From contig CAVWPG010000011.1 in assembly GCA_963756885.1 (NCBI GenBank), forward strand, positions 510,178 through 574,177: a stretch of DNA of 64,000 bases. Reading direction: 5' to 3'. Shown here piece by piece: positions 30,028-43,346 of the stretch. How positions within the stretch are numbered: position 1 is the first letter of the stretch; every line of letters begins with the position of its first letter. The notes beneath the pieces are model-generated. The model searched no databases. It was not told the origin of the DNA and was given only the letters and a program-made list of their open reading frames with translations. The position numbers and the translations under genes are program-made. This stretch comes from an uncultured Bacteroidales bacterium. Lineage in GTDB: Bacteria > Bacteroidota > Bacteroidia > Bacteroidales > VadinHA17.

Positions 30028-31002
30028 TCAGTGAAGCAGATTGACAATTTCTGAGATTCCAAAATTGCCATCCAGGTTTTGGATTTCAATTTTACCATTT
30101 AACAGATCAAAAAAGAAATCACGGATCTTTCCCATTGAGAGTGATGCTGGTTCTCCATTTGAATCCAGCCCCAAATCATAAGTCATCAGAAGCTGAGAGC
30201 CCAGGCTTGCTGCAGTTAACAAGAAATGATTCTGAAATTTTTCAGTGTCCAGCAGATCTGCAGCCAATACCTTTCCTACCACGGTGTAACTTCTCAGGTT
30301 TTTCTGAGTTTCGTCGTTCGTTAATGTCGTTTTTACTTCATCTGTTTCAATGTTCATTTCTATTTTGCCGGAGTTTGTTGCCTGAGGCAAACCTCTGTAA
30401 AGAGAACCTAAGTCTGCTAAACTTAAATTATAAAATTTTGTACCAGGCAATGTTATTATTTTTTCGATAGAAAAGGCACTGGGCAAGAGTAACCAAACCA
30501 CTTGTGCAGCCTTTATTGATGGAGCATTAAATGTCCCTGCAACCGAATTGGTCAGATCAATGGTTTGAGTTGCAAATACGCCACCAATTACGACGCTGTT
30601 TTCAAGGATAACTTCGTCAGCATAAATACTGCCTGCAACAAATGAATTATAAAGTGTTACGGTTTTGGCGTTTATATCAGAATAAAAAATTATGTTGCAG
30701 TTTGGTGCTCTTGAAACAATGGAATTGGCAGAGCCAACGCACTTTTTAAACAGGATATTTCCACTTGCTTCACTATTTATGTAGAGTTCACTTTGGGCAA
30801 AAACTGCTCCCTGTATTTCTGAATTCCCCTGTTGAATTTCGAGTTTATGGGCGAATACAGGGCCTTCAATTATAGTGTTGCCTTGGATTGAAATTGTTCT
30901 GCTTAGTTCAGAATATTTCTCAGGCAAAATAGAGCCTTTAACCAGATTATCCTTAAGCTGGATATTCATTTCATTAAACCGAATTTCTTTTAGTTCTGTC
31001 AT
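30028..31002 (-). CDS. Operon gene 6: beta-helix-repeat protein (bactofilin-like N-terminal half) with an unassigned C-terminal domain
   Basis: Repeated short strand motifs read IQGNTIIEGPVFAHKLEIQQGNSEIQGAVFAQSELYINSEASGNILF...VAGSIYADEVILENSVVIGGVFATQTIDLTNSVAGTF. No TM helix. Confidence 0.45.
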   Translation of the reverse strand: MTELKEIRFNEMNIQLKDNLVKGSILPEKYSELSRTISIQGNTIIEGPVFAHKLEIQQGNSEIQGAVFAQSELYINSEASGNILFKKCVGSANSIVSRAPNCNIIFYSDINAKTVTLYNSFVAGSIYADEVILENSVVIGGVFATQTIDLTNSVAGTFNAPSIKAAQVVWLLLPSAFSIEKIITLPGTKFYNLSLADLGSLYRGLPQATNSGKIEMNIETDEVKTTLTNDETQKNLRSYTVVGKVLAADLLDTEKFQNHFLLTAASLGSQLLMTYDLGLDSNGEPASLSMGKIRDFFFDLLNGKIEIQNLDGNFGISEIVNLLH

Positions 31003-31012
31003 AATCTTTTCA

Positions 31013-32080
31013 TTAACTATTCATTATGCTCATTACATTTATTGAATCAAGGTCAGCAATTCTCTGAACCATTTCTTTTAACCTGACTGTATGTTGATCA
31101 TGGCCCGGGAAAGCCTTGTTCAATTCTGAATTAAAATGCATTTTCAGATTTGCAGTATAATCCGGCTTTATGGTATTCCAGGAAATTGTATTCGCAGAGA
31201 ATTGCTCATTAAGTGCAGACTTGATCAAATTATCCTGAAATGCAGTCGAAAATTCCGGAATATACAAATCCCTGCCAATTTGATTTTTTTCATTACGGGT
31301 TTCCATGAAACATACGGGAGAATACTGCCGGTCGGTAATGTTCTCATTCAGCATGCTTTTTTGGATAGTGTTATTTAGCTTCTTCTGTTGCCATAAAAAT
31401 ATCTTAGCTTTGTTGAGAGTATCCAAAGCTCTTTTCTTTGCGTAGGATACACTTATTTTTGACTGAAGTTCACCGCTTTCCCTGCCAAAAATTGCAACGG
31501 TATTTACCATGTCATTGCCTATAGTTCTTATAATATGGTCAGCCAATTCTTTTTGAAACAGGAAAGCAGGCTTGTCTAATTCATAAATTCTATTGTAAAG
31601 TTCCTTATTCAAGTCGTCAAAAATTTTATAATACCGGCTCGAAATTCTAAGGAAGTCTCCTTCCATTTGCTTTTTCTTCGAAAGGCAGGATTGGCACAGC
31701 TCTTTCAGGTGCATCAGATGAGCATCAATATTTTGTGAAAGCTCTGCAATCTGCTGACTTATTTCAGAGCGTATAAAGCCAAAGAATCCGCTGATAATTG
31801 TGTCTGCAACTTTTTCAGAGTTGCTGTCAATTGACTCTACCTGTGCAACTTCAGTTGCAACTACTGAACCTGTCAGCAAATTTACATGTGTATTGCACTG
31901 ATCAACGCTACTGTCAAAAGAGTCAGTATCCACATGTATATTGACATTAACAGGAACATATTCTGTATAATGAACTGTTGCTGAAGTAGTACCTCCATTT
32001 TGTGATGCAGGATAAGAGACATTTACAGTTTTTGAACCACTGACAGTTATTGTTTCACTATAACTTCTGGAATAGCTCAT
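31013..32080 (-). CDS. Operon gene 5: unknown-family protein, paralog of gene 4
   Basis: 355 aa. Shares with the 303-aa neighbour the block GFFGFIRSEISQQIAELSQNIDAHLMHL...SSRYYKIFDDLNKELYNRIYELDKP. No TM helix and no catalytic motif seen. Confidence 0.6.
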   Translation of the reverse strand: MSYSRSYSETITVSGSKTVNVSYPASQNGGTTSATVHYTEYVPVNVNIHVDTDSFDSSVDQCNTHVNLLTGSVVATEVAQVESIDSNSEKVADTIISGFFGFIRSEISQQIAELSQNIDAHLMHLKELCQSCLSKKKQMEGDFLRISSRYYKIFDDLNKELYNRIYELDKPAFLFQKELADHIIRTIGNDMVNTVAIFGRESGELQSKISVSYAKKRALDTLNKAKIFLWQQKKLNNTIQKSMLNENITDRQYSPVCFMETRNEKNQIGRDLYIPEFSTAFQDNLIKSALNEQFSANTISWNTIKPDYTANLKMHFNSELNKAFPGHDQHTVRLKEMVQRIADLDSINVMSIMNS

Positions 32081-32091
32081 ACGCTTATCAA

Positions 32092-33003
32092 TTATAGGGT
32101 TAGATAGCCAACAGACTGGAATAATTCCGTAGTTAGATTTCTTACTCTAAGCGGCTTGGAAGAAGAGGAGACGAGTTTGCTGAATTCGCTTATAACTTCC
32201 TGATCCGGAACAGATTTTTCTTTCCATTCAATTTTCTGTAAAAAATCTAAGGCAGAATTCCTGATAGCTGATTTTGAAAAATTATTCAATCCATCTTCAG
32301 GTACAATTATTTCATAGCTGTTATCAGCTTTATTCCTGTTGCAATCGCAAATTGCAATTGGTATGTAGACAGTTGCACTTACAGTAAATCTATCATCATT
32401 TATCAGTATCTGATCGGTAAGTTTCTTTTGATTAATCATTTCGAAGAGAAAACTTCCCATTGATTTTATAACATTCAAGCCACGATATTTTGTATTTGAA
32501 GCAATTATTTTCTGGCTTACCGATAATGATTCCAATTGTGTAACTGGTATTGTCGCAGTGAGGTATTTTGTCCGGTTTGACAGCTTGTCAATTTCTTTGA
32601 CAGCAAAGTCAATGGTGGGTTTATCAAGTTCAAATACTCTCAGTTTTAAATTGGCATTTAAACCATTGAATAATTTCATATACCTGCCGGAAATCATATT
32701 ATAATCTTTTTGCATACGATTTTTTATGCTTAGCAACGCATTTTTTTGCTGTACCAATTGCATTACATGAGAATCGACCTCGCTTTGAAGTTTTGCCATT
32801 TTTTGCGAGATCTGAGAACGAATCAAGGAATAAAACCCTTTATTCACATTGTTGCAGACATGATCTGCTGCTTTTTCTTCTGCCAGGATGACTGCTGTTT
32901 GCATAGCAACTACAGCAACGGTAGTTGCTTCAACATGTCGTGAAACACTTTTTATTTCTGTCGCCATTGGCGTTGTGTCTACAGTATAATTGAATGTTGC
33001 CAT
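32092..33003 (-). CDS. Operon gene 4: unknown-family protein, paralog of gene 5
   Basis: 303 aa. Carries GFYSLIRSQISQKMAKLQSEVDSHVMQL...SGRYMKLFNGLNANLKLRVFELDKP. About 34 of 75 aligned positions are identical to gene 5 by eye. Confidence 0.6.
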   Translation of the reverse strand: MATFNYTVDTTPMATEIKSVSRHVEATTVAVVAMQTAVILAEEKAADHVCNNVNKGFYSLIRSQISQKMAKLQSEVDSHVMQLVQQKNALLSIKNRMQKDYNMISGRYMKLFNGLNANLKLRVFELDKPTIDFAVKEIDKLSNRTKYLTATIPVTQLESLSVSQKIIASNTKYRGLNVIKSMGSFLFEMINQKKLTDQILINDDRFTVSATVYIPIAICDCNRNKADNSYEIIVPEDGLNNFSKSAIRNSALDFLQKIEWKEKSVPDQEVISEFSKLVSSSSKPLRVRNLTTELFQSVGYLTL

Positions 33004-33090
33004 GATCCTTAAAATTAGAACGGGTAAATAATCTTCACATTATGATATTTTAATCTGAAACTGTTACTTCACATATCTTCATTTCCGACA

Positions 33091-35382
33091 TTACAAATCA
33101 TCATCAGAAATATCTGTTTCCTCCTCATTATTCACTGAGCTATCCCTGTCAGAGTCAGACCTATTACCCTCATCTGCCTCATTTTGATCATCCTTGTCCA
33201 TCTCAGTTTTAGCCTTAATTTCAGGTACTTCATCATCAGGTTCTGATTCTTTATCTGAAACCTCTTCATAATTATCCTTCTGAATAGTATCCTCACCAAT
33301 TTCCGGTTCCTCAATTTCCAAATCTGGTTCTTTAATTGCAGCTTCATCTTTTTTGTCATAGTCGGGATTCTCTGCATCCATCACTTGCTCTTCACTTTCA
33401 GGGTTGGGTTTTACGTCAGGGTTTTCAATATTCTCCGGATCAGAAATCTCACCATTTGCTTTAATATCATTTTCATCAATATTTTCAGGGCTTCCCGCAG
33501 GTAAATCTTGCCCCATATTATTACCTTGTGCATCTTGATCCCCGTCAAGATCCGTCAGAGAGTTCTTTGCTATAACTGGCAGATTCAGGGATAAATGCTC
33601 ATAAGTGATCTCTTCAACGTTTGGGATCGGAGGAAGATCTGAAATTTTTGCAAAAAGCGGATTAACACCGATAAGTGGCTTTCTTCTGCTTTCCAGGTTA
33701 TTTGCTTCACTTGCTGCCACTGCTGTATCTTTTGAGTTCCCATCACGAAGCAATGCATCGTAATAGTCAATGTGTTCGAATTTCTCTGCTTTTAAATCAA
33801 TATCTTCCTTGAGTCTCTCCATAAAGTTTTCAAAATCGAGCTGGACATTTTGAAATTCTCTTGATTGCAATTCAAAGGCTGCAAAAACCTCAGCTGAATT
33901 TTGAGTGGCAGAAACAACTGTTGAATCAAGGGAACCGCCTGACTCAGCCATGCTGTCTTCAGTTTTTTTCAAGGAAGTCAGGGTATTATATGCTGCAACA
34001 TAGTCTCTCAGACTGGCCCTCATCAAATTTATCAGGTCAGCACTTTCGGAGCGGTTTCTTCCATAGAAGTCTTCAGTATCCTGATGCCATTTATTCAGGT
34101 AACTGATCTTTTGGTCCTTGATATGGTTATATATTTTAAGTCTTTCAATCCTTGTTTCATTCATAAGATTTTGAACAATTGGAGCAACGATTTCTTCATG
34201 TATCTGGTGAACTCCAAACGGGAAGTTTGTGCTGCTGCCGTCTTCGCCCGTCCACATTCCGGAGATTAGGTTAAATTTAACTTTTGAACTTTCCTTTAAC
34301 TGGAAGGGGACATATTCTGATGCCGATTCCCCATAATTGAAATCTTCATTTCTGATTCTTTCTATTTCTGATGCTTCAAGTACAGGAGAATAATGGTTAT
34401 ATGGAGATTTAAGAATTTTGTACAGGAGTTTGTTGGATTCGAAAATAATTTTATCTGTTGAAGCAACTTTTAAAGCAGATATTGCCTGAACTGAATTTGC
34501 CATTGTTATCATCAAGCCTCGCAGAACATCTTCAAATTGAGCAGTATCTCTTGACAATGAATCTTTGAGTTTGTTTAATTCCTGGAATTTGGAGATTTGA
34601 GTACTGTAATTATTTATATCGAATACCTCAAAAACCGGAGATTCTTTTGGAACCTCTGTCGTGGCAAACTCCTTTATAAAATTTAAATAACTGCTATTAT
34701 TTTCAACCAGAGGCAATTCAACAGAGATTACATCCAGATCATCCATGCAATAAGAAATTGTCCGTAAGGATCTTTCCAGTCTCCCAAAGTAATCGTGTTG
34801 ATTTAAGTGTTGCATTGAACGGGAATATTGTTGAGTTTCGATCTCTTCAATTTCTTCTGAACCCTCCACAATAGGGGCCTCATCAGATAACTTTTCCAAT
34901 TCAGAAATCGTCTTTATCAATAAATCGTTTTGTTTTGAAAGTTGTAGTTTTACCTCTGACTCACCTACCATACCGGTATGGTCAACAATGAAACTTTTAT
35001 TCTCATATTTAATCTGACTGGCAACCGGAACATATGCAATCCCCAGCTTACTGACCCTGTAGTCTCTGAATATCTCTTTATGCTGCTTTTTAAATACATC
35101 AATCCTTTCATCCAGCGATATGATTTTCTTTTTTAAACCATTCTCCTTGACTGTAAAATAAATAAAAGTGAATATTAGGATGCATAAGAACCATTTAAGG
35201 CGCCTGGTTTTTAAAAGGTCAGTATCCAAAATGGATAGTTCTTCCTTAAGTTTCGCAATCTCTTTTTCAATATGTTCTTCCTCGTGTACTATTTTTTCAG
35301 CCATTTGCACATAATAGTTGAATAATATCTTTGCCTGATCCTGGAAAAGATTGTTTGATTCAGGAGTAATTTTGCCTTTCAT
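33091..35382 (-). CDS. Operon gene 3: 763-aa protein with N-terminal coiled coil, one TM helix, a large unassigned domain and a roughly 170-aa Asp/Glu-rich tail
   Basis: EKEIAKLKEELSILDTDLLK is followed by WFLCILIFTFIYFTV (TM). The C-terminus runs from DLDGDQDAQ to NNEEETDISDDDL and is dominated by D/E/P/N. Confidence 0.6.
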   Translation of the reverse strand: MKGKITPESNNLFQDQAKILFNYYVQMAEKIVHEEEHIEKEIAKLKEELSILDTDLLKTRRLKWFLCILIFTFIYFTVKENGLKKKIISLDERIDVFKKQHKEIFRDYRVSKLGIAYVPVASQIKYENKSFIVDHTGMVGESEVKLQLSKQNDLLIKTISELEKLSDEAPIVEGSEEIEEIETQQYSRSMQHLNQHDYFGRLERSLRTISYCMDDLDVISVELPLVENNSSYLNFIKEFATTEVPKESPVFEVFDINNYSTQISKFQELNKLKDSLSRDTAQFEDVLRGLMITMANSVQAISALKVASTDKIIFESNKLLYKILKSPYNHYSPVLEASEIERIRNEDFNYGESASEYVPFQLKESSKVKFNLISGMWTGEDGSSTNFPFGVHQIHEEIVAPIVQNLMNETRIERLKIYNHIKDQKISYLNKWHQDTEDFYGRNRSESADLINLMRASLRDYVAAYNTLTSLKKTEDSMAESGGSLDSTVVSATQNSAEVFAAFELQSREFQNVQLDFENFMERLKEDIDLKAEKFEHIDYYDALLRDGNSKDTAVAASEANNLESRRKPLIGVNPLFAKISDLPPIPNVEEITYEHLSLNLPVIAKNSLTDLDGDQDAQGNNMGQDLPAGSPENIDENDIKANGEISDPENIENPDVKPNPESEEQVMDAENPDYDKKDEAAIKEPDLEIEEPEIGEDTIQKDNYEEVSDKESEPDDEVPEIKAKTEMDKDDQNEADEGNRSDSDRDSSVNNEEETDISDDDL

Positions 35383-35406
35383 AGTATTCCGGATTTATGA
35401 TTACTT

Positions 35407-36117
35407 TTAGTCTGAAAAAACCTGCTTACGTTCTTTACACGTCCTTTCACAATTTTTAATATTGTCCTGAATATTATCAATGTTTAGAGGAAGGTTAACA
35501 AAACAGTCATCTAACTTTCTCATTTCTTCAACGAACTGTTTTTCAAGTTCGGTTGCTCTGTTATTATTACATGGAGAAAGGAATCTGATATTTTCCTGTA
35601 AATTATTTATTCTTTGAATTATATCTTCCGGGATATCTGTCATCCTATCTAATTTTAACTGCAATTCCCTTGTTGTCTTTTTCATTTCATCAATTTTAAT
35701 CAGTATCTGTTGTTCTTCCTGATGAATCTCATGTACTTTTTCAGAAGAAGAAAATGCCAGGAACAGACCTGTAAGAAGAAGGAAAAGAAGAATCCCATGG
35801 ATAATCAATTGAGAGGTGAAAGAGATAGGATTGACGGTATTGAAAATAATCATTGCCCCAGCTCCGGTTAGCATATACAAGGTGGTAAAGGCCCATCTTA
35901 TCCCGATTGAGCCTATTTTTTTCTGTGGTTTGTCTTTTAGGTCAATCCATGGAATAAAGATGTCGAAAAAAGAAAAAATATAGATTAATGAAGTCACAGC
36001 AATATTAAGCTTAAGTATTTCAGGTTGAAGATTTTTCCCGAAATGAATCAAGCAGATGATTATCAATCCTTCCCCCAATAGAAAGAGTAACAGGGAAAAT
36101 ATTCTTTTAGCATTCAT
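35407..36117 (-). CDS. Operon gene 2: four-TM membrane protein with a C-terminal cytoplasmic coiled coil
   Basis: Hydrophobic helices at about aa 6-25, 37-56, 72-92 and 100-122. These are followed by EKVHEIHQEEQQILIKIDEMKKTTRELQLKLDRM and further heptad-like sequence. Confidence 0.6.
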   Translation of the reverse strand: MNAKRIFSLLLFLLGEGLIIICLIHFGKNLQPEILKLNIAVTSLIYIFSFFDIFIPWIDLKDKPQKKIGSIGIRWAFTTLYMLTGAGAMIIFNTVNPISFTSQLIIHGILLFLLLTGLFLAFSSSEKVHEIHQEEQQILIKIDEMKKTTRELQLKLDRMTDIPEDIIQRINNLQENIRFLSPCNNNRATELEKQFVEEMRKLDDCFVNLPLNIDNIQDNIKNCERTCKERKQVFSD

Positions 36118-36133
36118 TTTAGAGGTTTTTGAT

Positions 36134-37384
36134 TTATCGTTTTAAACCGCATTTTGGACAGAATTTAACGTTTGAGGCCAACGCTGTACCGCATCTGGTA
36201 CATTTATCATCTGCCTGCTGTTGCCCGCAATTACCGCAGAATGAGCTGCCAGGTGCAAGAGGAGAATTGCAATTTGAACATAGGCTAAGATCTCCTTGTA
36301 ATGTAGCACCGCAACTCACACATCGTTTTGCGTTTCTATCATTATCTGTACCGCACTTTGGACAGGCATCATACGGATCGCCGCAATGCGGGCAGAAGCG
36401 ATTGGTACTTGCAAATTTCCTTGAGCAATTTGAGCAATAAACTTCCCTGATCTGATTTGCCGGTTGAGTTGCGCCCCCTTGTGGGGACTGATTTGAGCCT
36501 CCAAACGAAGGCTGGGTGTATTGAGGTTGCAAAACACCTCCGGCGCCGCCCAAACCTCCTATCATATTGCTGGCTATTACAGCACCCAATATTCCGGAAT
36601 TATTGTTTGAGATGCCATCGATGGCATTATTAGCAGTACCAAATGCCTGCTCCTGTTGCCATGTATAACCTCCAATGGATTGGGCACTTTGTCTGGAAAT
36701 TGCATCCAATACCCTTCTTCCAACATCGGTAGAGTTATCGACTTCAATGCTTGTAATATAGAATTGTGTCAATTCAAGTCCGATATTTTCCCAGAAGGGG
36801 AGCATAATATTTTTTAAATGCTCTGAAATACTCTCAAGGTGTGCTGAAATCTGCTTTAACCCAATTCTGTTTTTTATCATGAATTGTAAAAGAGTCGATT
36901 TAGTCTTGGATGAAAACTCTCCAAAAAATTGATCAGTTAGGTCATTTTGATCAAATATATTTTTGGTTCCGACTATTTTGATAAGGAATCTTTCAGCATC
37001 GTTTATTTTTAACCCGTACCTGCCATTGGCCACAAGTGGAATTCCTGTATTGTAATCCGCATCATGAATATCCATTCTGTTTATAGCCCAATCAATATTG
37101 TAAGGTTGCAACTTATTCACAAACCATACTTCGGCTGTAAATGGATTTTTACCCCCGAAAGGGAGACCGTACAAGCTTCTTAACACCGGAAGATTTTCAG
37201 TATTAAGGGTATGTTTGCCCGGCCCAAATTTCCCAATGATTTGTCCTTTGGAAAATAATATTGCTTCTTGTGATTCCTGTACAATAAGCTGAGTAAACGT
37301 ACTGAGATTGGTCTCGGGATATCTGAAAGCATATATAGTTTGATTTCCCTGAGGTGACCAGTTGACCAGATCAATTATTGCCAT
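36134..37384 (-). CDS. Operon gene 1: SPFH/band-7-like (YdjI / COG4260-type) domain fused through a Gly/Gln-rich linker to four zinc ribbons
   Basis: The N-terminus IDLVNWSPQGNQTIYAFRYPETNLSTFTQLIVQESQEAILFSKGQIIGKFGPGKHTLNTENLPVL...AEVWFVNK matches the YdjI-type SPFH pattern. The linker is GGLGGAGGVLQPQYTQPSFGGSNQSPQGG. The C-terminus carries eight CxxC pairs (CSNC, CPHC, CPKC, CVSC, CSNC, CGNC, CTRC, CPKC). Confidence 0.75.
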   Translation of the reverse strand: MAIIDLVNWSPQGNQTIYAFRYPETNLSTFTQLIVQESQEAILFSKGQIIGKFGPGKHTLNTENLPVLRSLYGLPFGGKNPFTAEVWFVNKLQPYNIDWAINRMDIHDADYNTGIPLVANGRYGLKINDAERFLIKIVGTKNIFDQNDLTDQFFGEFSSKTKSTLLQFMIKNRIGLKQISAHLESISEHLKNIMLPFWENIGLELTQFYITSIEVDNSTDVGRRVLDAISRQSAQSIGGYTWQQEQAFGTANNAIDGISNNNSGILGAVIASNMIGGLGGAGGVLQPQYTQPSFGGSNQSPQGGATQPANQIREVYCSNCSRKFASTNRFCPHCGDPYDACPKCGTDNDRNAKRCVSCGATLQGDLSLCSNCNSPLAPGSSFCGNCGQQQADDKCTRCGTALASNVKFCPKCGLKR

Positions 37385-38135
37385 AACTAATTAATTAATC
37401 ATTTATATTTAAAATAAAAATCGCGTTTTTGGAATTGCAAGAAAGTGATTCCCTGGATTTTGAACGCTGCACTATTTGTAAAGATACAATCAGGTAAATT
37501 ATGTGTTTTATTAAAGCAAAACAGAAAATGCATTGAGCTAAAGCAAATCCTCCGAAATGCCTTATGGTATAATCAACCAACATATTTGCTATATTTCACC
37601 ATGAGATGACTCAATGTAAGTATTCAAATAATAAGTATTTATCTCCATTATAGATCGATCATGTAATTCCAGTCAATTTTAACCAGGATGTCCGGCTAAC
37701 GCAGGTAAATACTTTTTCGAAAACTTCAAACTTAGGTTGTAGATACTTTCTTTAAATTGAATTGCGGCGTTTTACTCAAAATTAAATAATGCAAAGCAAA
37801 GTTCAAGACTTCGGATAGGATAAAATATTAACAATCATTTTGTTAATAAATATTTGATTCAAGACCTTATTAGCCATCATATCTCTATAAAGTAAGGCTT
37901 CGTATGCATACATTTAAATATTGTAATAATCAATATTCCAGTAAATTAATCAAGCAGGATGATGATTTGGAAAAAGGTGTCTCATACATACTGTAAAATA
38001 GCGTGACTATAATAAATATGGCTGCAATAATTAAGCCTGTGTTGGATGGAGAGTATATGCATCCCGTCTACATGATTCATCAGATAACATTTATTTATCA
38101 AAATGTTTAGCAGATCGTACAGCAAAAGATCAAAG

Positions 38136-38207
38136 AAATATTTCGGCGAGGGTGACGCTGTGGGTAAAGCATTGGATATTCAGGTAGAGGGAAGTTTTGA
38201 AACCAGA
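38136..38207 (+). pseudogene. Short remnant of an FtsX/MacB-type permease gene
   Basis: KKYFGEGDAVGKALDIQVEGSFET matches KKYFGNGDAVGKTFDVQVEGSYET of the 60748-63141 product. DNA identity is roughly 80 percent by eye, and no flanking coding continuity remains. Confidence 0.5.
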
Positions 38208-38267
38208 TTCAGGCGATTGTTGTGTTTTTTGTTCTTTCGGAACAATAAAGTGTCCCCCGGTTCAGGA

Positions 38268-38672
38268 GTTTGGCAAGTGTACTTGTTGAAGAACCGGGCC
38301 CCGCTTTGGTGGAATGCGCCCGCCGAAGGCAATCTCTTGCTGATTTAACCATTTATCCGTTTAGTAATGAAAAGCTATACAAGTTATAATTTCAACCGGC
38401 AGGGCATCTTATGTGGCATAGACCTGTACGGGATTATGACCCAAAAATCTTTCCTGGGTAAAATCTGGTTGCTTTTATTACCTGCTTTGCCAATTGATGT
38501 TTATTTTTGCCAGATTTATTTTCAGAAATATGCAAAATCAGGGTAATCAGACTTCAGCTGCAATAGATAGCGATATAGCAGGGAAAACAGTATTTTATAT
38601 ATTATTATATATTAGCTTTTATCATCTCTTTAACGACACTATTCAGTATATTATCTCTTATATATATGGCAT
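38268..38672 (+). repeat. Direct repeat copy A: duplicate of the fsr upstream region plus the first ~48 codons (mutated, truncated)
   Basis: Aligns base-for-base with 45485-45889 at an offset of 7217. There is 1 mismatch in the first 276 nt and at least 17 substitutions in the last 129 nt. The track ORF 38494-38688 is the mutated fragment (FYILLYISFYHLF versus FSILLSISFSHLL). Confidence 0.9.
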
Positions 38673-38689
38673 AAGATGGTTGGTTTGAA

Positions 38690-38927
38690 CACTTTCGGCA
38701 ATGAAGATTTGCATTTTTATATTTATCTTAAATTCATGAGTTTAACACTCATTTTAAATGGTCAGTTTGTACTGGCAGGAGGTGGTTACAGCTTACGTAT
38801 AAACCATAATCATGATGTGGCAGAAAATACTGCAATAATGTACTCGCTTCTTGGGTGTTGTGCTGAAACAGATGTAAATCCCAGAGAAGTGGCTGACAGA
38901 GGTGATAATAAGAATACCTTATTATAA
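38690..38927 (+). mobile_element. IS66-family transposase C-terminal remnant
   Basis: The ORF reads ...SLTLILNGQFVLAGGG...AENTAIMYSLLGCCAETDVNPRE. This resembles the IS66 TnpC C-terminal pattern RPLxLGRKNxLFAGS...AxxAAxxYSLxxTxKxNGxxP. It is truncated and lacks the catalytic part. Confidence 0.55.
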
Positions 38928-39379
38928 GAACGATTACAGCCTTGATATGGCAGTATCTCCTGCCTCATAACTGGAAGGGAGCATGTGATACTCCAGAAAA
39001 CTCTAATGGAAATCCAATAATTAATGGATATCATTGGAAAAAGTTAAACTGTCCAATCATTTTCTAAAGAATTTCAAAGAACTGCAACAAAGTTGTACTG
39101 GAAATTAAACATGGCAAGATAACTATTTATGAGCTAACTATGTAAGAGTTGGATAAGAGATGTCTAGGGAGAAAAGGATGATGGCATAAGGTTAATAGCT
39201 TAAGGAAGAGGTAAGGAGATTTTCTGGGATATGAAATAGGCTGAGAACTGCTTAAAGATTTGGATTTCTTTATACTTTCAGCTTAAAGATTAAAAAAGGG
39301 CAGCAGGTTGAAGGGGAACAATGATCTCTTTTTTATCTTTAGGGGCGAATAATTATTTTTAAATTAAAACTGCTACATC

Positions 39380-39466
39380 ATGAGTAATTTTAAGGAACTG
39401 AAAGTCTGGCAGAAAAGCATGAAGGCAGAACAGGTAGTTTTAAAATATATCTCTAATTATATTTTC
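39380..39466 (+). pseudogene. Possible N-terminal stub of a four-helix-bundle (23S rRNA-intervening-sequence-type) protein
   Basis: MSNFKELKVWQKSMKAEQV resembles the FKDLKVWQKA start of that family, but the ORF stops after 28 aa. Confidence 0.35.
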
Positions 39467-39484
39467 TGATTAATATATATCAAT

Positions 39485-42400
39485 ATGTTTAGTGTTAAGG
39501 TTATTATAGATTTTGTAATTAATAACTTCCAAATTAGTCTTTCTTTCAATTTGAAAAGTATGTTTATAATTTGCTTTTTAATTCTTTCAATCTTCTCCTC
39601 TTCAATAAGCATCTATGCTCAAAATTACAATGTAAAGATCTTTACAACTAATGACGGATTAGCAAATAATAATGTCAGGGCAATAGCTGAAGATAGTTCT
39701 GGATTTCTTTGGATAGGTATCTGGGATGGATTAAGTAGGTTTGATGGACATGAGTTCAGAAACTACTTTCATGTAACTGATGATTCTATCTCTCTTTTGT
39801 ATTTTACAATCAGAAAGCTCTGTGTGGATTGTGAAAATAATCTTTGGATTTTCACGGAAAAGAGGTGAGTAGTTTTATTTAACAGGAATGCAGAAAATTT
39901 CAAACTAGTAAAAGAAATTAATGGCATGTCTTTGGAAGACGATATAGACATATGCGTAGATGAGAATGGTTATTTTTGGATAATAGATCAGAATGGATTG
40001 TACAGACACGAGCTTAAAGCAGATAAATATGAGAAATTAAGGATACTTCGCTCTGACGGATACAAATTAAATCTTGATGAAGCTTCTGCCTGGATATAGT
40101 CATTGATAATAAGAAGTTGTGGATTGCAAGCATGTAGTATGTGAAAGAATTTACTCTTGGTAATGGATTAGTTACATTAGAAAAAAGTTTTTCTCTTGTC
40201 AGAAAATATTACAGGGTTATCTATTTTGATCATATTGAATGGTTTAGATTCTTTCAATCAGAATAAGGAGAAAAATGGGTACTTTCAAATGTTGGACTTT
40301 TTAAATTCAAAGAAGAGTCTGCAATATTAGAAGAATTCAATGGGGAAACTGAGCTTAAAGACTTAAAGAACAGGAATAGAATTGTCTGGGGTAAGATGAG
40401 TAATGGTATTTTCTTTTATTCTACTGAGAACTAGGAACTCATACACGTTCAGTCAGAAATCTTACAATTGCTAATTTCAATGATGTGTGCAAACTAGAAT
40501 TATATTTGGCTCTCTAACGTATCAAATGATGGAGTTTTGCTAGGGTTATATAGAGTGGTATTTTCACTAAAATTCTTCACAAATACCTTTATAGAAACAT
40601 CTAATTCAAAACAGATAGCAGTTTACTCTATAGCTCAGGATATAAACAGAGATATTTGGGTAGGAGTCAGGGGGAACAATCATATAATTAAAATAAATAA
40701 ATCAGGAGGGATTAAAGGCATAGATTTTTTAGATCAGGATTTCTATAGCAAATCAGGTTATATCAGATCATTGATTACTGTTCAGGATGGCATCTGGGTA
40801 GGATATTACATGGGTATGTTACAATTTTATGATTACAAAACAGGTCAATTTGTTGATCATCATATCGGATTTTTCACTTTTAGGGCAATATCTCTAAATA
40901 ATGAGAATAATATAATTATTGGCATCACAGGCAAACTATTACTTTATAACTCTCGTAACAGTAAGCTCAAAACACTATGGGTACAACAAGAAAAGGCACT
41001 TCTATCTATAAGGTATATTATGACGCTTCTGGAGTCATATGGGCAGGGATGTCAGACAGTAAACTTCTTAAATACACTATTAAATAAGGAGATTAACATG
41101 TATATAAAATAAATAATGATAATTGTAATATAGAAGACATACAAATAGATGACAACGGTGAATTGTGGTTGGCTCTTCTTGGAGGTGGTGTCTGCAGGTA
41201 TAATATAGATACAGGAGTAACTAAATATTATACTACTTCATCAGGTTTATCTAATAATACAACTTACTGTATATTAAAAGATAAATCAGGTGGAATTTGG
41301 GTATCAACCAATAATGGGATATCATAATAAACTCTAAAACGGGGTTAATAAGAAACTTTAATCAAACTGATGGTCTTTTAATCTCGGAATTTAATTACAG
41401 TGCAAGTTATGCAAACAGCAACGGTGAATTTTTCTTTGGAGGGATGGGGGGGTTTGATAGATTATATCTTGATAGTATTGAAAACGCCATAACGGAAACC
41501 ATAAAATACAAGGTTCTATTAACAGATTTCAGTGTATCAGGGGAAAGAAAGGTGCTTACAAAAGCACTCAATGATTCAGATACAATAACACTTGCTAAGG
41601 GAGAGACCAATTTTCAGCTTTCTTTTTCATCTAGCGATTTTCTAAATTCTGATAAAACACATTTCAGATACATGTTAAGCTATATAAATCAGAACTGGAT
41701 TGAGACTGACTCACATGTAAGGAGTGTTAACTTTTACAACCTCAAACAGGGTAGCTATTTCTTTGAAATTCAAGTAACTAATTTAAATGGAGAATGGACA
41801 GCAGATAAAAAGATAGTTTTCAATATTAAGCCTTTCTTCTATCAGACATTGTTATTTCATATTTCAGCTCTGTTGTTTATCATTTTAGTTTTTGTCGGCA
41901 TTATTGTTTTATATATCAGGCAGTTTAAACAAAAAGAGAAGCAAAAACAAGATACTCTTAAACTACAGTCTCTCCGTGGTCAGATGAATGCTCATTTTAT
42001 TTTCAACTCGCTAAATTCTATTAATTACTTTATTTCCAATAATGATAAATTGTCCGCTAACCGGTATATAGCTGATTTTTCACGATTAATCAGGTCTATA
42101 CTTTCGAATTTTGGTAAAGATTATATTACATTTAAGAACGAAGTTGACTCAATAAAGGATTATGTAAATATTGAATATTTGAGATTTGGAGATAAATTCG
42201 ATTTTGAGGTTATTGTAGATCTGTCTAATTATAATTCTGATTTTGAAATATTTACAGGCTTAGTTTAGCTATTTATAGAAAATGCTATCTGGCATGGAGT
42301 GAGAGCTCTGGAATCACGAAAAGGGATTATTAAAATTTATTTTTATTGTGTTGGAACAAATAGGATAAAATGCTCTGTTGAGGATAACGGAATTGGATGA

Positions 42401-42600
42401 GATGATTCGCTTAACAGTAAAACTGATCATGATAATCATAAATCAAGAGGTATCGATATTGTTAATGAAAGGTTACAGATAATAAGCAAATTAAGGGGAG
42501 TTAACTATGCTCTCGAAATATCTGATCTTTACTATGATAAGGTAGATACCGGAACTAAGGTTGAAGTTGATATATCTGTAAAATGGATAAAAAGGAGTAT
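39485..42600 (+). pseudogene. Decayed sensor kinase: Reg_prop/Y_Y_Y beta-propeller sensor plus LytS-type His_kinase and HATPase, with many frameshifts and in-frame stops
   Basis: Recognisable pieces are TNDGLANNNVRAIAEDSSGFLWIGIWDGLSRFDGHEFRNY (Reg_prop), GELWLALLGGGVCRYNIDTGVTKYYTTSSGLSNNTTYCILKDKSGGIWVSTNNGIS, a TM segment, LRGQMNAHFIFNSLNSINYFI (His_kinase) and LFIENAIWHGV...VEDNGIG (HATPase). These lie in at least four frames, and TAG, TGA and TAA all occur in-frame. Confidence 0.75.
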
Positions 42601-42603
42601 AAA

Positions 42604-43346
42604 ATGATAAGGGCAATTGTTATTGATGATGAAAAACTATATAGTGAAGTCATATGCAATTATTTGAAAGAGTATTGTAGTGATGTGCAGGTTATTAATA
42701 CAGCTTCATCTGTTAAGGCAGGCTATACTATTATTAAAAGATTTAAGCCTGATCTTGTTTTTCTAGACATTGAACTTGGTGAGGGTACAGGTTTCGACCT
42801 GCTAAGAATGTTTGATATGATAACATTTAAAATAATTTTTGTAACGGCATTTTCAGAACATGCAATGAAAGCATTCAGGGTTAATGCTATAGATTATTTG
42901 CTAAAAACAGTTAAAATTGATGAATTGAAAGATGCAGTAGAAAGAGTAAAAGTAACCAGATGGGGATACGATTATCAGGATAAATAAGAACTTTCATTAA
43001 AAGTATATCTCTAAAAACATCAGGTGAGCTAAAGCTTATAATTTCTCACCTAAAAGGATATGATATTTTAAAAGTGAACGAAATTATAATGTGAAAAGCT
43101 GATGGGTATTGCACAGAATTTTTTCTTACAGGCAAGAGAGTGGTCATCAGCGCAAAAAATCTGAAACAATACGAAACTTTTCTTCTAGGACAATTCTTCT
43201 TTAGGTCCCATAACTCGTACCTTATTAATTTAAATCACATTTGCAGCTACACGAAGCAAGGAGTTATTGATCTGACTGAAGGAAGAAAAGCTAGCCTTTT
43301 AGATCAAAACAGAAATAAATTAATACAAATACTCAAGGCCAGATAA
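42604..43346 (+). pseudogene. LytTR-family response regulator, disrupted
   Basis: The receiver is intact (MIRAIVIDDE...PDLVFLDIELGEGTGFD...FVTAF). The LytTR domain continues in another frame (ILKVNEIIM*KADGYCTEFFLTGKRVVISAKNLKQYE...FFFRSHNSYLINLNHI) with a TGA where the family has Cys. Confidence 0.7.

What the first reader, a model, noticed from the sequence alone, without database searches (positions are those of the whole stretch)
36134..37384. SPFH domain fused to a quadruple zinc-ribbon array via a Gly/Gln-rich linker
The first 270 aa follow the YdjI-type SPFH pattern (QLIVQESQEAILFSKGQIIGKFGPGKHTLNTENLPVL). After a low-complexity G/Q/S/P linker, the last roughly 100 aa carry eight CxxC pairs arranged as four ribbons. 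In the Bacillus ydjGHI arrangement the Zn-ribbon membrane protein and the SPFH protein are separate genes, as I recall. A fusion would support a direct physical partnership. Four ribbons in a row suggest a multivalent binding platform for protein, nucleic acid or lipid-proximal partners.
Basis: partly seen in the sequence, partly recalled or inferred. Interest (0 to 1): 0.6.

Follow-up and report, generated by a model that had tools for sequence, protein, structure and literature searches.

The report
SPFH zinc-ribbon protein leading mobile operon
This is a real, strongly conserved gene for a membrane-scaffold (SPFH) protein with four zinc fingers on a flexible tail; such tails are normal for its family, but in Bacteroidota the gene always travels with five uncharacterised partner genes as a horizontally mobile six-gene block of unknown function.

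Summary
ORF 36134-37384 (minus strand, 416 aa) has a Band_7_1/YdjI-type SPFH domain, a Gly-rich hydrophobic segment, a Q/P/S linker and four CxxC-x10-CxxC zinc ribbons. All 16 cysteines are conserved in about 200 orthologues, so it is not a mis-joined ORF.

SPFH plus low-complexity linker plus C-terminal zinc ribbon is the published architecture of B. subtilis YdjI itself. Among 119 diverse family representatives, tails carry 0 to 5 or more ribbons, or SHOCT or GYF_2 domains instead. The fusion is therefore not new, and four ribbons is a minority variant.

The new part is the context. The gene leads a strictly colinear six-gene cassette (window 30028-37384):
- SPFH-4ZnR
- a 4-TM protein
- a roughly 750-aa coiled-coil protein with one hydrophobic segment and an acidic tail
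- two paralogous helical proteins
- a bactofilin-like protein

The cassette occurs in every sufficiently long locus of about 90 examined. Its flanks are unrelated between loci, its phylogeny conflicts with taxonomy, and it sometimes sits beside integrases, IS elements or defence genes. The five partners match no Pfam, PDB, PADLOC or PHROG family, and AlphaFold2 gave no confident model for the two partners tried. No PspA was detected.

Most likely it is a membrane-tethered scaffold system. A defence role is not excluded.

The parts
36134..37384 (-). Gene A: SPFH-4xZn-ribbon protein, 416 aa, first gene of the cassette.
   Evidence: ORF. Domains. Full-length conservation.
36731..37327 (-). SPFH domain of the Band_7_1/YdjI type, aa 20-218.
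   Evidence: Pfam PF13421, E=7e-36, 124.3 bits against a cut-off of 24. Mean identity to the window sequence is 0.78 across 82 orthologues.
36620..36730 (-). Conserved post-SPFH segment, aa 219-255, ending in the G.TWQQEQ.F motif.
   Evidence: Conservation profile. The TWQQ motif was the pattern used to retrieve loci.
36446..36619 (-). Gly-rich hydrophobic 'glycine-zipper-like' segment (aa about 262-285), followed by a variable Q/P/S/G linker running to aa 313.
   Evidence: Composition, and a maximum 19-residue hydropathy of 1.34 centred near aa 264. This is the least conserved part of the protein. A similar G-rich segment occurs in 82 of 119 family representatives.
36137..36445 (-). Array of four zinc ribbons, aa 314-416, each CxxC-x10-CxxC. 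Ribbons 1 and 2 form a tightly spaced, highly conserved pair. Ribbons 3 and 4 are more variable.
   Evidence: In one search, mean identity to the window sequence is 0.75 for ZnR1 and 0.79 for ZnR2, against 0.59 for ZnR3 and 0.64 for ZnR4. The closest solved sequence match is DZANK1, a double zinc ribbon protein, E=2.5e-6.
35407..36117 (-). Gene B: 236 aa, four predicted TM helices plus a 110-aa cytoplasmic helical domain with a conserved R(F/Y)xSP motif. It is the likely membrane anchor. It starts 16 nt after gene A ends.
   Evidence: Sequence. No family hit. Present in nearly every locus that extends past gene A. B-like proteins also follow distant SPFH relatives.
33091..35382 (-). Gene C: 763 aa. 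It has an N-terminal coiled coil, one short hydrophobic segment (about aa 62-80), a conserved mostly helical region of about 530 aa, and a hypervariable acidic tail.
   Evidence: Alignments with many invariant residues. No PDB or Pfam match. The AlphaFold2 model is poor, pLDDT 45. Tail diversity.
32092..33003 (-). Gene D: 303 aa, a long-helix protein and paralogue of E.
   Evidence: BLASTP of D against E gives 31% identity, E=7e-31. Joint alignment. No family or PDB hit. The AlphaFold2 model is poor, pLDDT 61.
31013..32080 (-). Gene E: 355 aa, paralogue of D with an extra beta-rich N-terminal extension.
30028..31002 (-). Gene F: 324 aa, with a probable bactofilin-like beta-helix in the N-terminal half and an unknown C-terminal domain. 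It is the last gene of the cassette.
   Evidence: Pfam Bactofilin is below threshold but recurs in 20 of 22 diverse orthologues, best E=1.1e-4. DNA homology to other loci ends about 20 nt before its stop codon.

Best explanation
Gene A encodes a soluble, YdjI/SamI-type (Pfam Band_7_1) SPFH scaffold protein. Its C-terminal adaptor module is a four-ribbon zinc-finger array carried on a flexible Gly/Gln/Pro linker. It is the lead gene of an autonomous, horizontally mobile six-gene operon, A-B-C-D-E-F, found across Bacteroidota.

Proposed mechanism:
1. The 4-TM protein B, possibly with C, tethers oligomers of A to the cytoplasmic face of the inner membrane. This would mirror YdjG/YdjH tethering YdjI in Bacillus.
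2. The linker projects the four ribbons as a multivalent protein-docking platform. Ribbons 1-2 are a fixed, conserved pair and ribbons 3-4 are more variable.
3. That platform concentrates the soluble, probably polymer-forming partners at the membrane. These are the paralogous long-helix proteins D and E and the bactofilin-like F.
4. The result would be a sub-membrane scaffold serving membrane surveillance or remodelling. It would be functionally analogous to the PspA-YdjGHI (SamGHI) system but built from unrelated parts.

Shown here: the domain architecture, its conservation, the operon and its mobility, and the B-like partner in distant relatives.
Inferred: tethering by B, ribbon-partner docking, polymer formation, and the physiological role.
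For: Architecture:
- Band_7_1, E=7e-36, plus four ribbons.
- No strong TM segment in A; maximum hydropathy is 1.34.

Conservation:
- All 16 Cys are invariant in 119 of 120 close homologues, and 82 of 83 genome orthologues keep all eight CxxC pairs.
- Ribbons 1-2 are as conserved as the SPFH core.

Operon:
- Intergenic gaps are 16, 24, 87, 11 and 10 nt, all on one strand.
- The A-F order is the same in every sufficiently long locus of about 90 examined.
- DNA homology between loci is confined to the six genes.

A-B dyad beyond the cassette:
- A relative at 41% identity is still followed by B (profile E=3e-33) and C (E=8e-131).
- SPFH genes in Bacteroides finegoldii and Butyrivibrio are followed by B-like proteins, with B-profile E=8e-9 and 1e-8 in a 7-sequence search.

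B topology: four hydrophobic helices, a Lys-rich loop between TM2 and TM3, and a C-terminal helical domain (read from the sequence).

F: a bactofilin signal in 20 of 22 orthologues.

D and E: paralogues dominated by long helices.

Precedent from the literature:
- Band-7 proteins are proposed as chaperone-like assemblers of sub-membrane complexes (PMC11237479).
Against: - No interaction, localisation or phenotype data exist for any of the six proteins.
- No PspA/ESCRT-III homologue is detectable. hhalign of the D family against E. coli PspA gives probability 0.2%, and there is no Pfam hit.
- No TPM or YdjG-like protein is present, so the analogy to the Bacillus system rests on gene A alone.
- The folds of B to F are unknown. 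The AlphaFold2 models of D and C were unusable, with pLDDT 61 and 45.
- The bactofilin call for F is below the Pfam threshold.
- The post-SPFH helical region is only about 35 aa, far shorter than the coiled coils that build HflK/C or flotillin cages. Cage formation cannot be assumed.
- The Capnocytophaga orthologue that lost ribbon 3 keeps all five partners. This argues against a simple one-ribbon-one-partner code.
- Sporadic, horizontally transferred distribution, and occasional defence-island locations, fit a conflict system at least as well as a housekeeping stress system.
Confidence: 0.5

Rival explanations
1. The six-gene cassette is an anti-phage or anti-mobile-element conflict system. 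The SPFH/zinc-ribbon protein would act as a membrane-proximal sensor or scaffold. The membrane proteins B and C, or an unrecognised enzymatic domain in C, would act as the effector, for example by membrane depolarisation or abortive infection.
For: - Sporadic distribution: a confirmed relative in 253 of 185,579 species representatives. This is a lower bound from two peptide patterns.
- Flanks are unrelated between loci: 208 Pfam families among 141 flanking ORFs, none seen in more than 2.
- Protein identity is incongruent with taxonomy. Chitinophagales versus Dysgonamonadaceae is 99%, and Capnocytophaga isolates are nearest a Bacteroidales genome at 85%.
- Dysgonomonas termitidis has two copies. 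One lies beside BrxL, a kinase/PP2C cluster, a PLD-SNF2 helicase and an MmeI-type restriction-modification gene. The other is interrupted by an IS110 element.
- Integrases lie next to the cassette in Lutibacter, Labilibaculum and a JGI contig.
- PADLOC hits among flanking ORFs include ThsB-like TIR (2), mad2/mad8 (2), LeoA (2), a DRT reverse transcriptase, a type II restriction enzyme, PDC-S01 and PDC-S26.
Against: - None of the six proteins hits any PADLOC model or any PHROG family.
- No recognisable nuclease, NADase, protease, kinase or NTPase is present.
- C has no relative on any PLSDB plasmid or INPHARED phage. No relative of A was found in IMG/VR. Only relatives of A below 34% identity occur on plasmids.
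- Most flanks are ordinary metabolic genes.
- The defence-gene fraction in the flanks, roughly 8-12 of 141, was not compared with a matched control. Some of those hits (GajB/UvrD, type I methyltransferase) can be housekeeping genes.
- Sequence conservation is high for a system expected to be in an arms race.
Confidence: 0.3
2. The four ribbons bind nucleic acid rather than partner proteins. They would tether DNA or RNA to an SPFH membrane platform, or sense it there.
For: - The family profile weakly matches small archaeal Zn-ribbon RNA-binding and ribosomal proteins, E about 0.015-0.05.
- The ribbons carry conserved Lys/Arg residues (KK, R, AKR, KF, KR).
- Many orthologues of partner C end in a helix-extension-helix motif that Pfam matches to Rho_N, LEM or Ish1.
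Against: - All these matches are far below significance.
- The best solved match, DZANK1 at E=2.5e-6, is not a known nucleic-acid binder.
- In the wider family the ribbon tail is interchangeable with SHOCT and GYF_2. Those domains are generally regarded as protein or peptide interaction and oligomerisation modules (PMC3581485, and general knowledge).
Confidence: 0.15
3. One reading: the protein is a gene fusion of a YdjG-like zinc-ribbon membrane protein with a YdjI-like SPFH protein, and so reports a direct YdjG-YdjI partnership.
For: - Ribbon proteins do recur next to SPFH genes of this family. Examples are a stand-alone ZnR protein in B. finegoldii, a ZnR-coiled-coil protein in Butyrivibrio, and a ZnR-TM protein in locus L095.
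- Three C orthologues also end in ribbons.
Against: - YdjI itself already has the C-terminal zinc finger.
- The tail here has none of the other YdjG features. Those are the NTF2-like domain and the TM segment described in PMC11237479.
- Ribbon tails of 1 to 5 or more units are widespread across the family.
Confidence: 0.05
4. The Cys-rich tail is an artefact, namely a separate ORF mis-joined to the SPFH gene by a frameshift or assembly error.
For: None. Two representatives in the clustered library (P0242 and P0284) look like out-of-frame translations of a ribbon region. This shows that such errors occur elsewhere.
Against: The window has a single uninterrupted frame. The same 412-425-aa single ORF appears in 120 database proteins and 83 genome loci from independent assemblies.
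Confidence: 0.01

Closest known systems
Bacillus subtilis YdjI (SamI) of the pspA-ydjGHI (samGHI) operon
   Same: - Same Pfam family (Band_7_1).
- Same overall plan: an SPFH domain, no membrane anchor of its own, a low-complexity region, then a C-terminal zinc finger or ribbon.
- Encoded together with integral membrane proteins.
   Different: - Four ribbons here, whereas PMC8581546 mentions a single Zn-finger motif for YdjI.
- The partners are unrelated. There is no PspA, no TPM-domain YdjH and no YdjG.
- Instead there is a 4-TM protein, a 750-aa coiled-coil protein, two helical paralogues and a bactofilin-like protein.
- The SPFH gene comes first in the operon rather than last.
- The system is Bacteroidota-wide and horizontally mobile.
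Other Band_7_1 (PF13421, COG4260-type) proteins with C-terminal SHOCT, GYF_2 or 1-5 zinc ribbons
   Same: - SPFH core, frequent Gly-rich hydrophobic segment, low-complexity linker and a small C-terminal adaptor module.
- A B-like 4-TM protein is encoded immediately downstream in the cases examined.
   Different: - This clade has a fixed four-ribbon array, with a signature ZnR1-ZnR2 pair (V(Y/F)CSNC..K....FCPHCG..Y..CPKCG.DN...A.RC..CG).
- It has recruited four further genes, C to F.
Flotillin, HflK/C and stomatin SPFH cage or microdomain proteins
   Same: SPFH superfamily: Pfam Band_7 at E=3.6e-4 and stomatin chains at E about 0.08-0.3. A sub-membrane scaffolding role is expected.
   Different: - No N-terminal TM or hairpin anchor.
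- Only about 35 aa of post-SPFH helix instead of the long coiled coils that form cage walls.
- No NfeD or FtsH partner.
- No solved structure of a Band_7_1 member was found by sequence.
Bactofilins (polymer-forming beta-helix cytoskeletal proteins), for gene F
   Same: A repeated sub-threshold Pfam Bactofilin match over aa 60-152 in 20 of 22 orthologues, and a very weak match to BacA (2n3d), E=1.5.
   Different: - Scores are below the Pfam cut-off (17.8 against 27.9 bits).
- F has an extra conserved C-terminal domain of about 170 aa with no known relative.
DZANK1-type double zinc ribbon (Pfam DZR) arrays
   Same: The tail aligns to the double-ribbon region of DZANK1, E=2.5e-6, profile positions 312-411. 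Pfam DZR matches twice.
   Different: DZANK1 is a eukaryotic ankyrin-repeat protein. The resemblance is at the level of the generic ribbon motif only.

Membership tests
Pfam Band_7_1 (PF13421) / YdjI-type SPFH family | A significant match to the family profile over most of its length. | tested here: met
   E=7e-36, 124.3 bits against a cut-off of 24, profile positions 4-198 of 211. There are 2606 relatives at E<=1e-3 in the representative library.
Pfam Band_7_1 (PF13421) / YdjI-type SPFH family | No membrane anchor of its own, unlike flotillin or HflK/C. | tested here: met
   There is no N-terminal hydrophobic segment. The maximum 19-residue hydropathy is 1.34, in the Gly-rich segment near aa 264 and below the usual TM threshold. 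The role of that segment is unresolved.
Pfam Band_7_1 (PF13421) / YdjI-type SPFH family | A low-complexity linker followed by a small C-terminal adaptor (Zn ribbon, SHOCT or GYF_2). | tested here: met
   The architecture is published for YdjI.
PspA-YdjGHI (SamGHI) envelope-stress system | An operon partner of the PspA/IM30/ESCRT-III family. | tested here: not met
   No Pfam or NCBIfam PspA hit for any cassette protein. hhalign of the D family against E. coli PspA gives probability 0.2%. A fold-level test was impossible because the models were poor.
PspA-YdjGHI (SamGHI) envelope-stress system | Membrane partners of the YdjG type (ZnR + NTF2-like + TM) and the YdjH type (TPM domain). | tested here: not met
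   No TPM, NTF2-like or ribbon domain was found in B or C. B is a distinct 4-TM family.
PspA-YdjGHI (SamGHI) envelope-stress system | Induction by envelope stress (sigma-W in Bacillus) and membrane foci that depend on the membrane partners. | not testable with these tools
   This needs expression and localisation experiments. No motif shared by all loci was seen upstream of A.
Zinc ribbon (Pfam Zn_Ribbon_1 / DZR) | Two CxxC knuckles per unit, with a significant profile match. | tested here: met
   Four units of CxxC-x10-CxxC. Zn_Ribbon_1 scores 69 bits against a cut-off of 25, and DZR 67.1 bits against 27.3.
Zinc ribbon (Pfam Zn_Ribbon_1 / DZR) | Binding of one Zn2+ per ribbon. | not testable with these tools
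   Needs ICP-MS or a PAR assay on the purified tail. The expected ratio is 4 Zn per chain.
Bactofilin (PF04519), for gene F | A profile match above the gathering threshold. | tested here: inconclusive
   17.8 bits against a cut-off of 27.9 for the window protein. However, 20 of 22 diverse orthologues match at E<0.1, best 1.1e-4.
Known anti-phage defence systems (PADLOC-DB 2.0) | A match of component proteins to a defence-system model. | tested here: not met
   No hit at E<=0.01 for any of the six proteins. The single match was Unk_05, E=0.032.
Anti-phage defence systems in general | Enrichment in defence islands or mobile elements, with sporadic and horizontally transferred distribution. | tested here: inconclusive
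   Horizontal transfer and variable flanks are clear. Defence or mobile-element neighbours occur in some loci. Most loci have ordinary neighbours, and no matched control was run.
Flotillin / HflK/C-type SPFH cages | An N-terminal membrane anchor plus long C-terminal coiled coils. | tested here: not met
   There is no anchor and only about 35 aa of post-SPFH helix before the Gly-rich segment.

The most novel reading that the evidence does not exclude
The six-gene block (window 30028-37384) is a previously undescribed, horizontally mobile, membrane-associated system of Bacteroidota. In it, a YdjI-like SPFH scaffold uses a four-ribbon tail to assemble a bactofilin-like protein and two novel helical paralogues on two novel membrane proteins. 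It would be either a PspA-independent membrane-remodelling and repair machine, or a new kind of membrane-based anti-phage system. In either case five of its six protein families would be new to the databases searched here.
Probability: 0.35. Interest if true: 0.7.

Novelty: new variant of a known kind. Interest (0 to 1): 0.45.

Why it matters

What is worth following is the fixed six-gene cassette.
- It links an SPFH scaffold to a bactofilin-like protein and to four protein families with no match in Pfam, NCBIfam, PADLOC or PHROGs. The three families searched against PDB sequences also had no match, and AlphaFold2 with the available alignments failed for the two families tried.
- It moves between orders of Bacteroidota, including oral (Capnocytophaga) and gut (Alistipes, Muribaculaceae, Barnesiella, Prevotellaceae) lineages.

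If it is a PspA-independent membrane-maintenance machine, it would show how bacteria lacking the classical Psp system organise sub-membrane scaffolds, and what the ubiquitous small zinc-ribbon tails are for. If it is a defence system, it would add a membrane-scaffold-based mechanism.

Cultured carriers exist, so both ideas can be tested directly.

Tried and rejected
1. AlphaFold2 on D, using 25 sequences at 75-94% identity plus the paralogue. Mean pLDDT was 60.7 and pTM 0.25, with one implausible 134-residue helix. AlphaFold2 on C aa 1-620, using 51 sequences at 66-82% identity. Mean pLDDT was 45.1. Both models were too poor, so I ran no fold search. Only close homologues were admissible in the alignments, which probably limited quality.

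2. Profile searches of the C, D and F families against all PDB sequences found nothing. The only matches were acidic-tail noise from calreticulin and BacA at E=1.5.

3. Tested whether D and E are PspA-like. hhalign against E. coli PspA gave probability 0.2%. Scanning 42 D and E orthologues against Pfam gave only scattered coiled-coil noise, with DisA-linker in 8 of 42. There is no sequence evidence for the idea. It is not excluded at the fold level.

4. PADLOC, PHROGs and NCBIfam searches on all six proteins gave no meaningful hit.

5. Searched for the cassette on phages and plasmids. IMG/VR had none for A, and PLSDB and INPHARED had none for C. Only distant SPFH relatives occur on plasmids.

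6. Looked for a conserved promoter or operator upstream of A in 73 loci. No motif was shared by all. One subclade shares an element of about 130 nt. The sigma-70 and terminator scans were uninformative, because Bacteroidota promoters are not covered.

7. Tested synteny of the window's flanks with other loci. tblastx found nothing, and the 442-aa gene downstream of F is not conserved.

8. First attempt at a genome scan with a 20-sequence alignment failed because no stretch was conserved enough. A 9-sequence alignment worked.

9. Considered a 'one ribbon per partner' rule. The Capnocytophaga orthologue lacking ribbon 3 keeps all partners, so the rule is not supported.

10. A UniRef label, 'TerB-C domain-containing', on one C orthologue was not reproduced by Pfam.
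Full report
**1. The observation**

The window has an uninterrupted ATG-initiated ORF on the minus strand at 36134..37384, encoding 416 aa.

Pfam places a Band_7_1 (PF13421) SPFH domain on aa 20-218, with E=7e-36 and 124 bits against a cut-off of 24. It also finds four Zn_Ribbon_1 and two DZR matches on aa 314-413.

The protein has exactly 16 cysteines. All lie in eight CxxC pairs that form four units of identical geometry, CxxC-x10-CxxC, at 317/331, 341/355, 369/383 and 395/409.

Two segments lie between the SPFH core and the ribbons. The first is a mildly hydrophobic Gly-rich stretch, SGILGAVIASNMIGGLGGAGGVL, with maximum hydropathy 1.34. The second is a Q/P/S/G linker.

The only correction is that the conserved core ends near aa 255, not aa 270.

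**2. It is not an artefact**

The best 120 of 3,652 database homologues are 412-419 aa long and align over 100% of the query at 78-96% identity. They carry the same Pfam set, and 119 of them have eight CxxC pairs. Fifteen cysteine columns are invariant and the sixteenth is 99% conserved.

In 83 orthologues recovered from named genomes, 82 have four ribbons. One, in Capnocytophaga periodontitidis, has lost ribbon 3.

Conservation is uneven. ZnR1 and ZnR2 (mean identity to the window sequence 0.75 and 0.79) are as conserved as the SPFH core (0.78). ZnR3 and ZnR4 (0.59 and 0.64) and the linker (0.48) are looser.

**3. Is the fusion unusual? No.**

[quoted passage not shown] I searched the SPFH part (aa 1-280) against 1.84 billion cluster representatives. 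This gave 2,606 relatives. Among the 119 full-length proteins in the best 150, the number of CxxC pairs in the tail was distributed as follows:

| CxxC pairs | Proteins |
|---|---|
| 0 | 53 |
| 1-3 | 6 |
| 4 | 25 |
| 6 | 24 |
| 8 | 8 |
| 10-11 | 3 |

Of 51 ribbon-less members, 21 end in SHOCT and 10 in GYF_2. The SHOCT link agrees with the SHOCT paper (PMC3581485). A Gly-rich hydrophobic segment precedes the tail in 82 of 119.

The family plan is therefore SPFH, then a Gly-rich segment, then a flexible linker, then an interchangeable small adaptor. Four ribbons is a minority variant of a known architecture.

**4. The surroundings**

Gene A is followed on the same strand by five ORFs, with gaps of 16, 24, 87, 11 and 10 nt:
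- **B**, 236 aa: four hydrophobic helices and a cytoplasmic helical domain.
- **C**, 763 aa: an N-terminal coiled coil, one short hydrophobic segment, a large conserved region and an acidic tail.
- **D**, 303 aa, and **E**, 355 aa: paralogues at 31% identity, E=7e-31.
- **F**, 324 aa.

None of B to F has a significant hit in Pfam, NCBIfam, PADLOC or PHROGs. Family profiles of C, D and F find nothing in PDB sequences. F gives a sub-threshold Bactofilin match that recurs in 20 of 22 diverse orthologues.

**5. The cassette is conserved as a unit**

Contigs encoding close homologues from Lutibacter, Paludibacter, Labilibaculum, Barnesiella, Dysgonomonas and metagenomes all show A-B-C-D-E-F in the same order.

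A scan of one genome per species found confirmed relatives in 253 species. In the 80 best loci, at 55-86% identity, tblastn found all six genes colinear wherever the contig was long enough. The next window gene, of 442 aa, was never found.

The carriers are almost all Bacteroidota. They include Bacteroidales (Alistipes, Muribaculaceae, Prevotellaceae, Tannerellaceae), Flavobacteriales (Capnocytophaga), Chitinophagales, Sphingobacteriales and one Melioribacteraceae.

Nucleotide homology between the window and 12 loci starts at most 31 nt upstream of A's ATG. It ends between about 20 and 50 nt before F's stop codon.

**6. The cassette is mobile**

- Flanks are unrelated between loci. 141 flanking ORFs gave 208 Pfam families, none present in more than two loci. 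The window's own flanks match none of 86 loci.
- Protein identity conflicts with taxonomy. Chitinophagales versus Dysgonamonadaceae is 99%. Lutibacter versus Sphingobacteriales is 92%. Capnocytophaga isolates are closest to Bacteroidales bacterium CF at 84-85%. Two Paludibacter lineages carry different versions. Binning errors in metagenome-assembled genomes could explain some of these cases, but not the isolate genomes.
- Dysgonomonas termitidis has two copies with an identical C protein. One is interrupted by an IS110 element. The other sits among BrxL, a kinase/PP2C cluster, a transposase, a PLD-SNF2 helicase and an MmeI-type enzyme.
- Integrases adjoin the cassette in Lutibacter, Labilibaculum and a JGI contig.
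- Some flanks carry defence genes: TIR/ThsB-like, MADS, DRT, a restriction enzyme, and PDC candidates. Most are ordinary genes, and I ran no matched control.
- No relative of A was found in IMG/VR, and no relative of C was found in PLSDB or INPHARED.

**7. An older core: the A-B dyad**

A relative at 41% identity (P0248) is still followed by B (profile E=3e-33) and C (E=8e-131).

Much more distant SPFH genes are also followed by a B-like 4-TM protein sharing the R(F/Y)xSP motif, and then by a zinc-ribbon protein:
- In Bacteroides finegoldii the SPFH protein has a GYF_2-type tail and no ribbons.
- On Butyrivibrio plasmid pNP21 it has two ribbons.

The B-profile E-values are 8e-9 and 1e-8 in a 7-sequence search, and phmmer gives 1e-6 for Butyrivibrio.

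So the SPFH protein and a B-type membrane protein look like an ancestral pair. Ribbons appear either on the SPFH tail, on a neighbouring protein, or on both.

**8. What could not be resolved**

AlphaFold2 on D and on C aa 1-620 gave mean pLDDT of 61 and 45. I therefore ran no fold search.

The attractive idea that D and E are PspA/ESCRT-III analogues has no sequence support. hhalign gives probability 0.2%, and there is no consistent Pfam signal in 42 orthologues.

The topology of C is unclear, because both flanks of its hydrophobic segment are Lys/Arg-rich (read from the sequence).

**9. Mechanism**

The best-supported model, with confidence about 0.5, has three steps:
1. A is a soluble YdjI-like scaffold tethered under the membrane by B, possibly with C.
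2. Its flexible linker presents four ribbons as a multivalent docking array.
3. The array concentrates D, E and the bactofilin-like F into a sub-membrane assembly for membrane surveillance or remodelling.

The Bacillus precedent is that YdjI needs YdjG/YdjH for membrane foci and recruits PspA. This supports the logic of the model, not homology of the partners.

The main rival, at about 0.3, is a conflict or defence system. Mobility, patchy distribution and some defence-island locations favour it. The absence of any recognisable effector, and the absence from defence databases, weigh against it.

Whether the ribbons bind protein or nucleic acid is open. The only solved-sequence match of note is the double-ribbon region of DZANK1, E=2.5e-6.

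**10. Comparison and novelty**

As a protein, A is a member of PF13421 with a known type of tail. As a system, it is not the pspA-ydjGHI operon, because PspA, TPM and YdjG-like partners were tested for and not found.

No paper in the searchable library mentions SPFH together with bactofilin. PF13421 is mentioned in only one paper, which says nothing about this context.

I rate the finding a new variant of a known kind. The fusion itself is ordinary. The conserved, mobile cassette of five dark protein families is the part worth pursuing.

Noticed in passing
window 39485-43346 (+): A Y_Y_Y/His_kinase sensor gene is broken into at least five ORFs in different frames (39485-39868, 39926-40099, 40537-41112, 41163-41327, 41444-42268). 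The adjacent response regulator is split in two (42583-42987, 43140-43346). These are either pseudogenes or assembly frameshifts.
   Followed up: partly
window 37385-39484: A 2.1-kb stretch directly upstream of the cassette has no ORF longer than 83 aa, no Rfam family and no tRNA. Its content is unexplained.
   Followed up: partly
window 33091-33540 (tail of gene C); loci L001-L086: The C-terminal tail of protein C is hypervariable:
- Poly-Asp/Glu runs reach up to 75% acidic residues.
- Many orthologues end in a 45-aa motif, EELxxLxDExLxxI..LGIEY..FDREEAIxxIL, which Pfam matches weakly to Rho_N, LEM or Ish1.
- Three (L030, L032, L034) end in zinc ribbons.
- Three (L024, L027, L040) end in a basic GKxKGFxxLKGKFGI motif.
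- Capnocytophaga and Muribaculaceae orthologues lack the tail.

The window copy has only the acidic tail.
   Followed up: partly
window about 34123-34143 (gene C, aa 414-420): Invariant R414-x5-H420 (RLKIYNH) lies within a block of invariant residues in all 51 aligned C orthologues. The spacing is HEPN-like. It could be coincidence and was not tested.
   Followed up: no
L087 and L088 (Dysgonomonas termitidis, contig BAAHYD010000002.1): There are two copies of the cassette in one genome, with an identical C protein. One has an IS110 transposase inserted between D and E. The other sits beside BrxL, a Ser/Thr kinase, small zinc-ribbon proteins, FGE-sulfatase and a PP2C cluster, and an MmeI-type restriction-modification gene.
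   Followed up: partly
L099-L104 (JGI metagenome contigs): In one lineage the cassette is bracketed by two paralogous CbbX/EccA-type AAA+ ATPase genes. They are 682 aa and 295 aa, 43% identical, and match CbbX at E about 1e-50. The upstream gene overlaps A's start by 14 nt. These could be accessory remodelling ATPases or simply the insertion site. In L100 genes A and B are fragmented.
   Followed up: partly
L097 (Bacteroides finegoldii 'plasmid 5') and L098 (Butyrivibrio pNP21): These are distant variants of the SPFH plus B-like dyad.
- B. finegoldii: HTH regulator, a hypothetical protein, YidD, SPFH-GYF_2, a B-like 4-TM protein, then a stand-alone zinc-ribbon protein.
- Butyrivibrio: SPFH-2xZnR, a B-like protein, then a ZnR-coiled-coil protein of 464 aa, next to toxin-antitoxin and restriction subunit genes.
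   Followed up: partly
L001, L007, L010, L014, L031 (about 130 nt upstream of gene A): A subclade shares a conserved upstream element containing a repeated CCGACACACAA and the sequence GCTTCGCAAAAGTCAAAGAGCCATTT. It is not clearly present in the window. It could be an operator or promoter, or the edge of the mobile unit.
   Followed up: no
window 36446-36619 (gene A, aa 256-313): A Gly-rich hydrophobic 'glycine-zipper-like' segment recurs in 82 of 119 family representatives. Its hydropathy is below the usual TM threshold. Whether it inserts into the membrane, drives oligomerisation or is simply a flexible spacer is unexplained.
   Followed up: partly
L008 (MAG labelled Pseudobacteroides sp.) and protein P0167 (MAG labelled Bacilli bacterium): Cassette genes identical or nearly identical to Bacteroidales versions occur in bins assigned to Firmicutes. 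L008 is a 4-kb contig, so the likeliest cause is a binning error rather than inter-phylum transfer.
   Followed up: no
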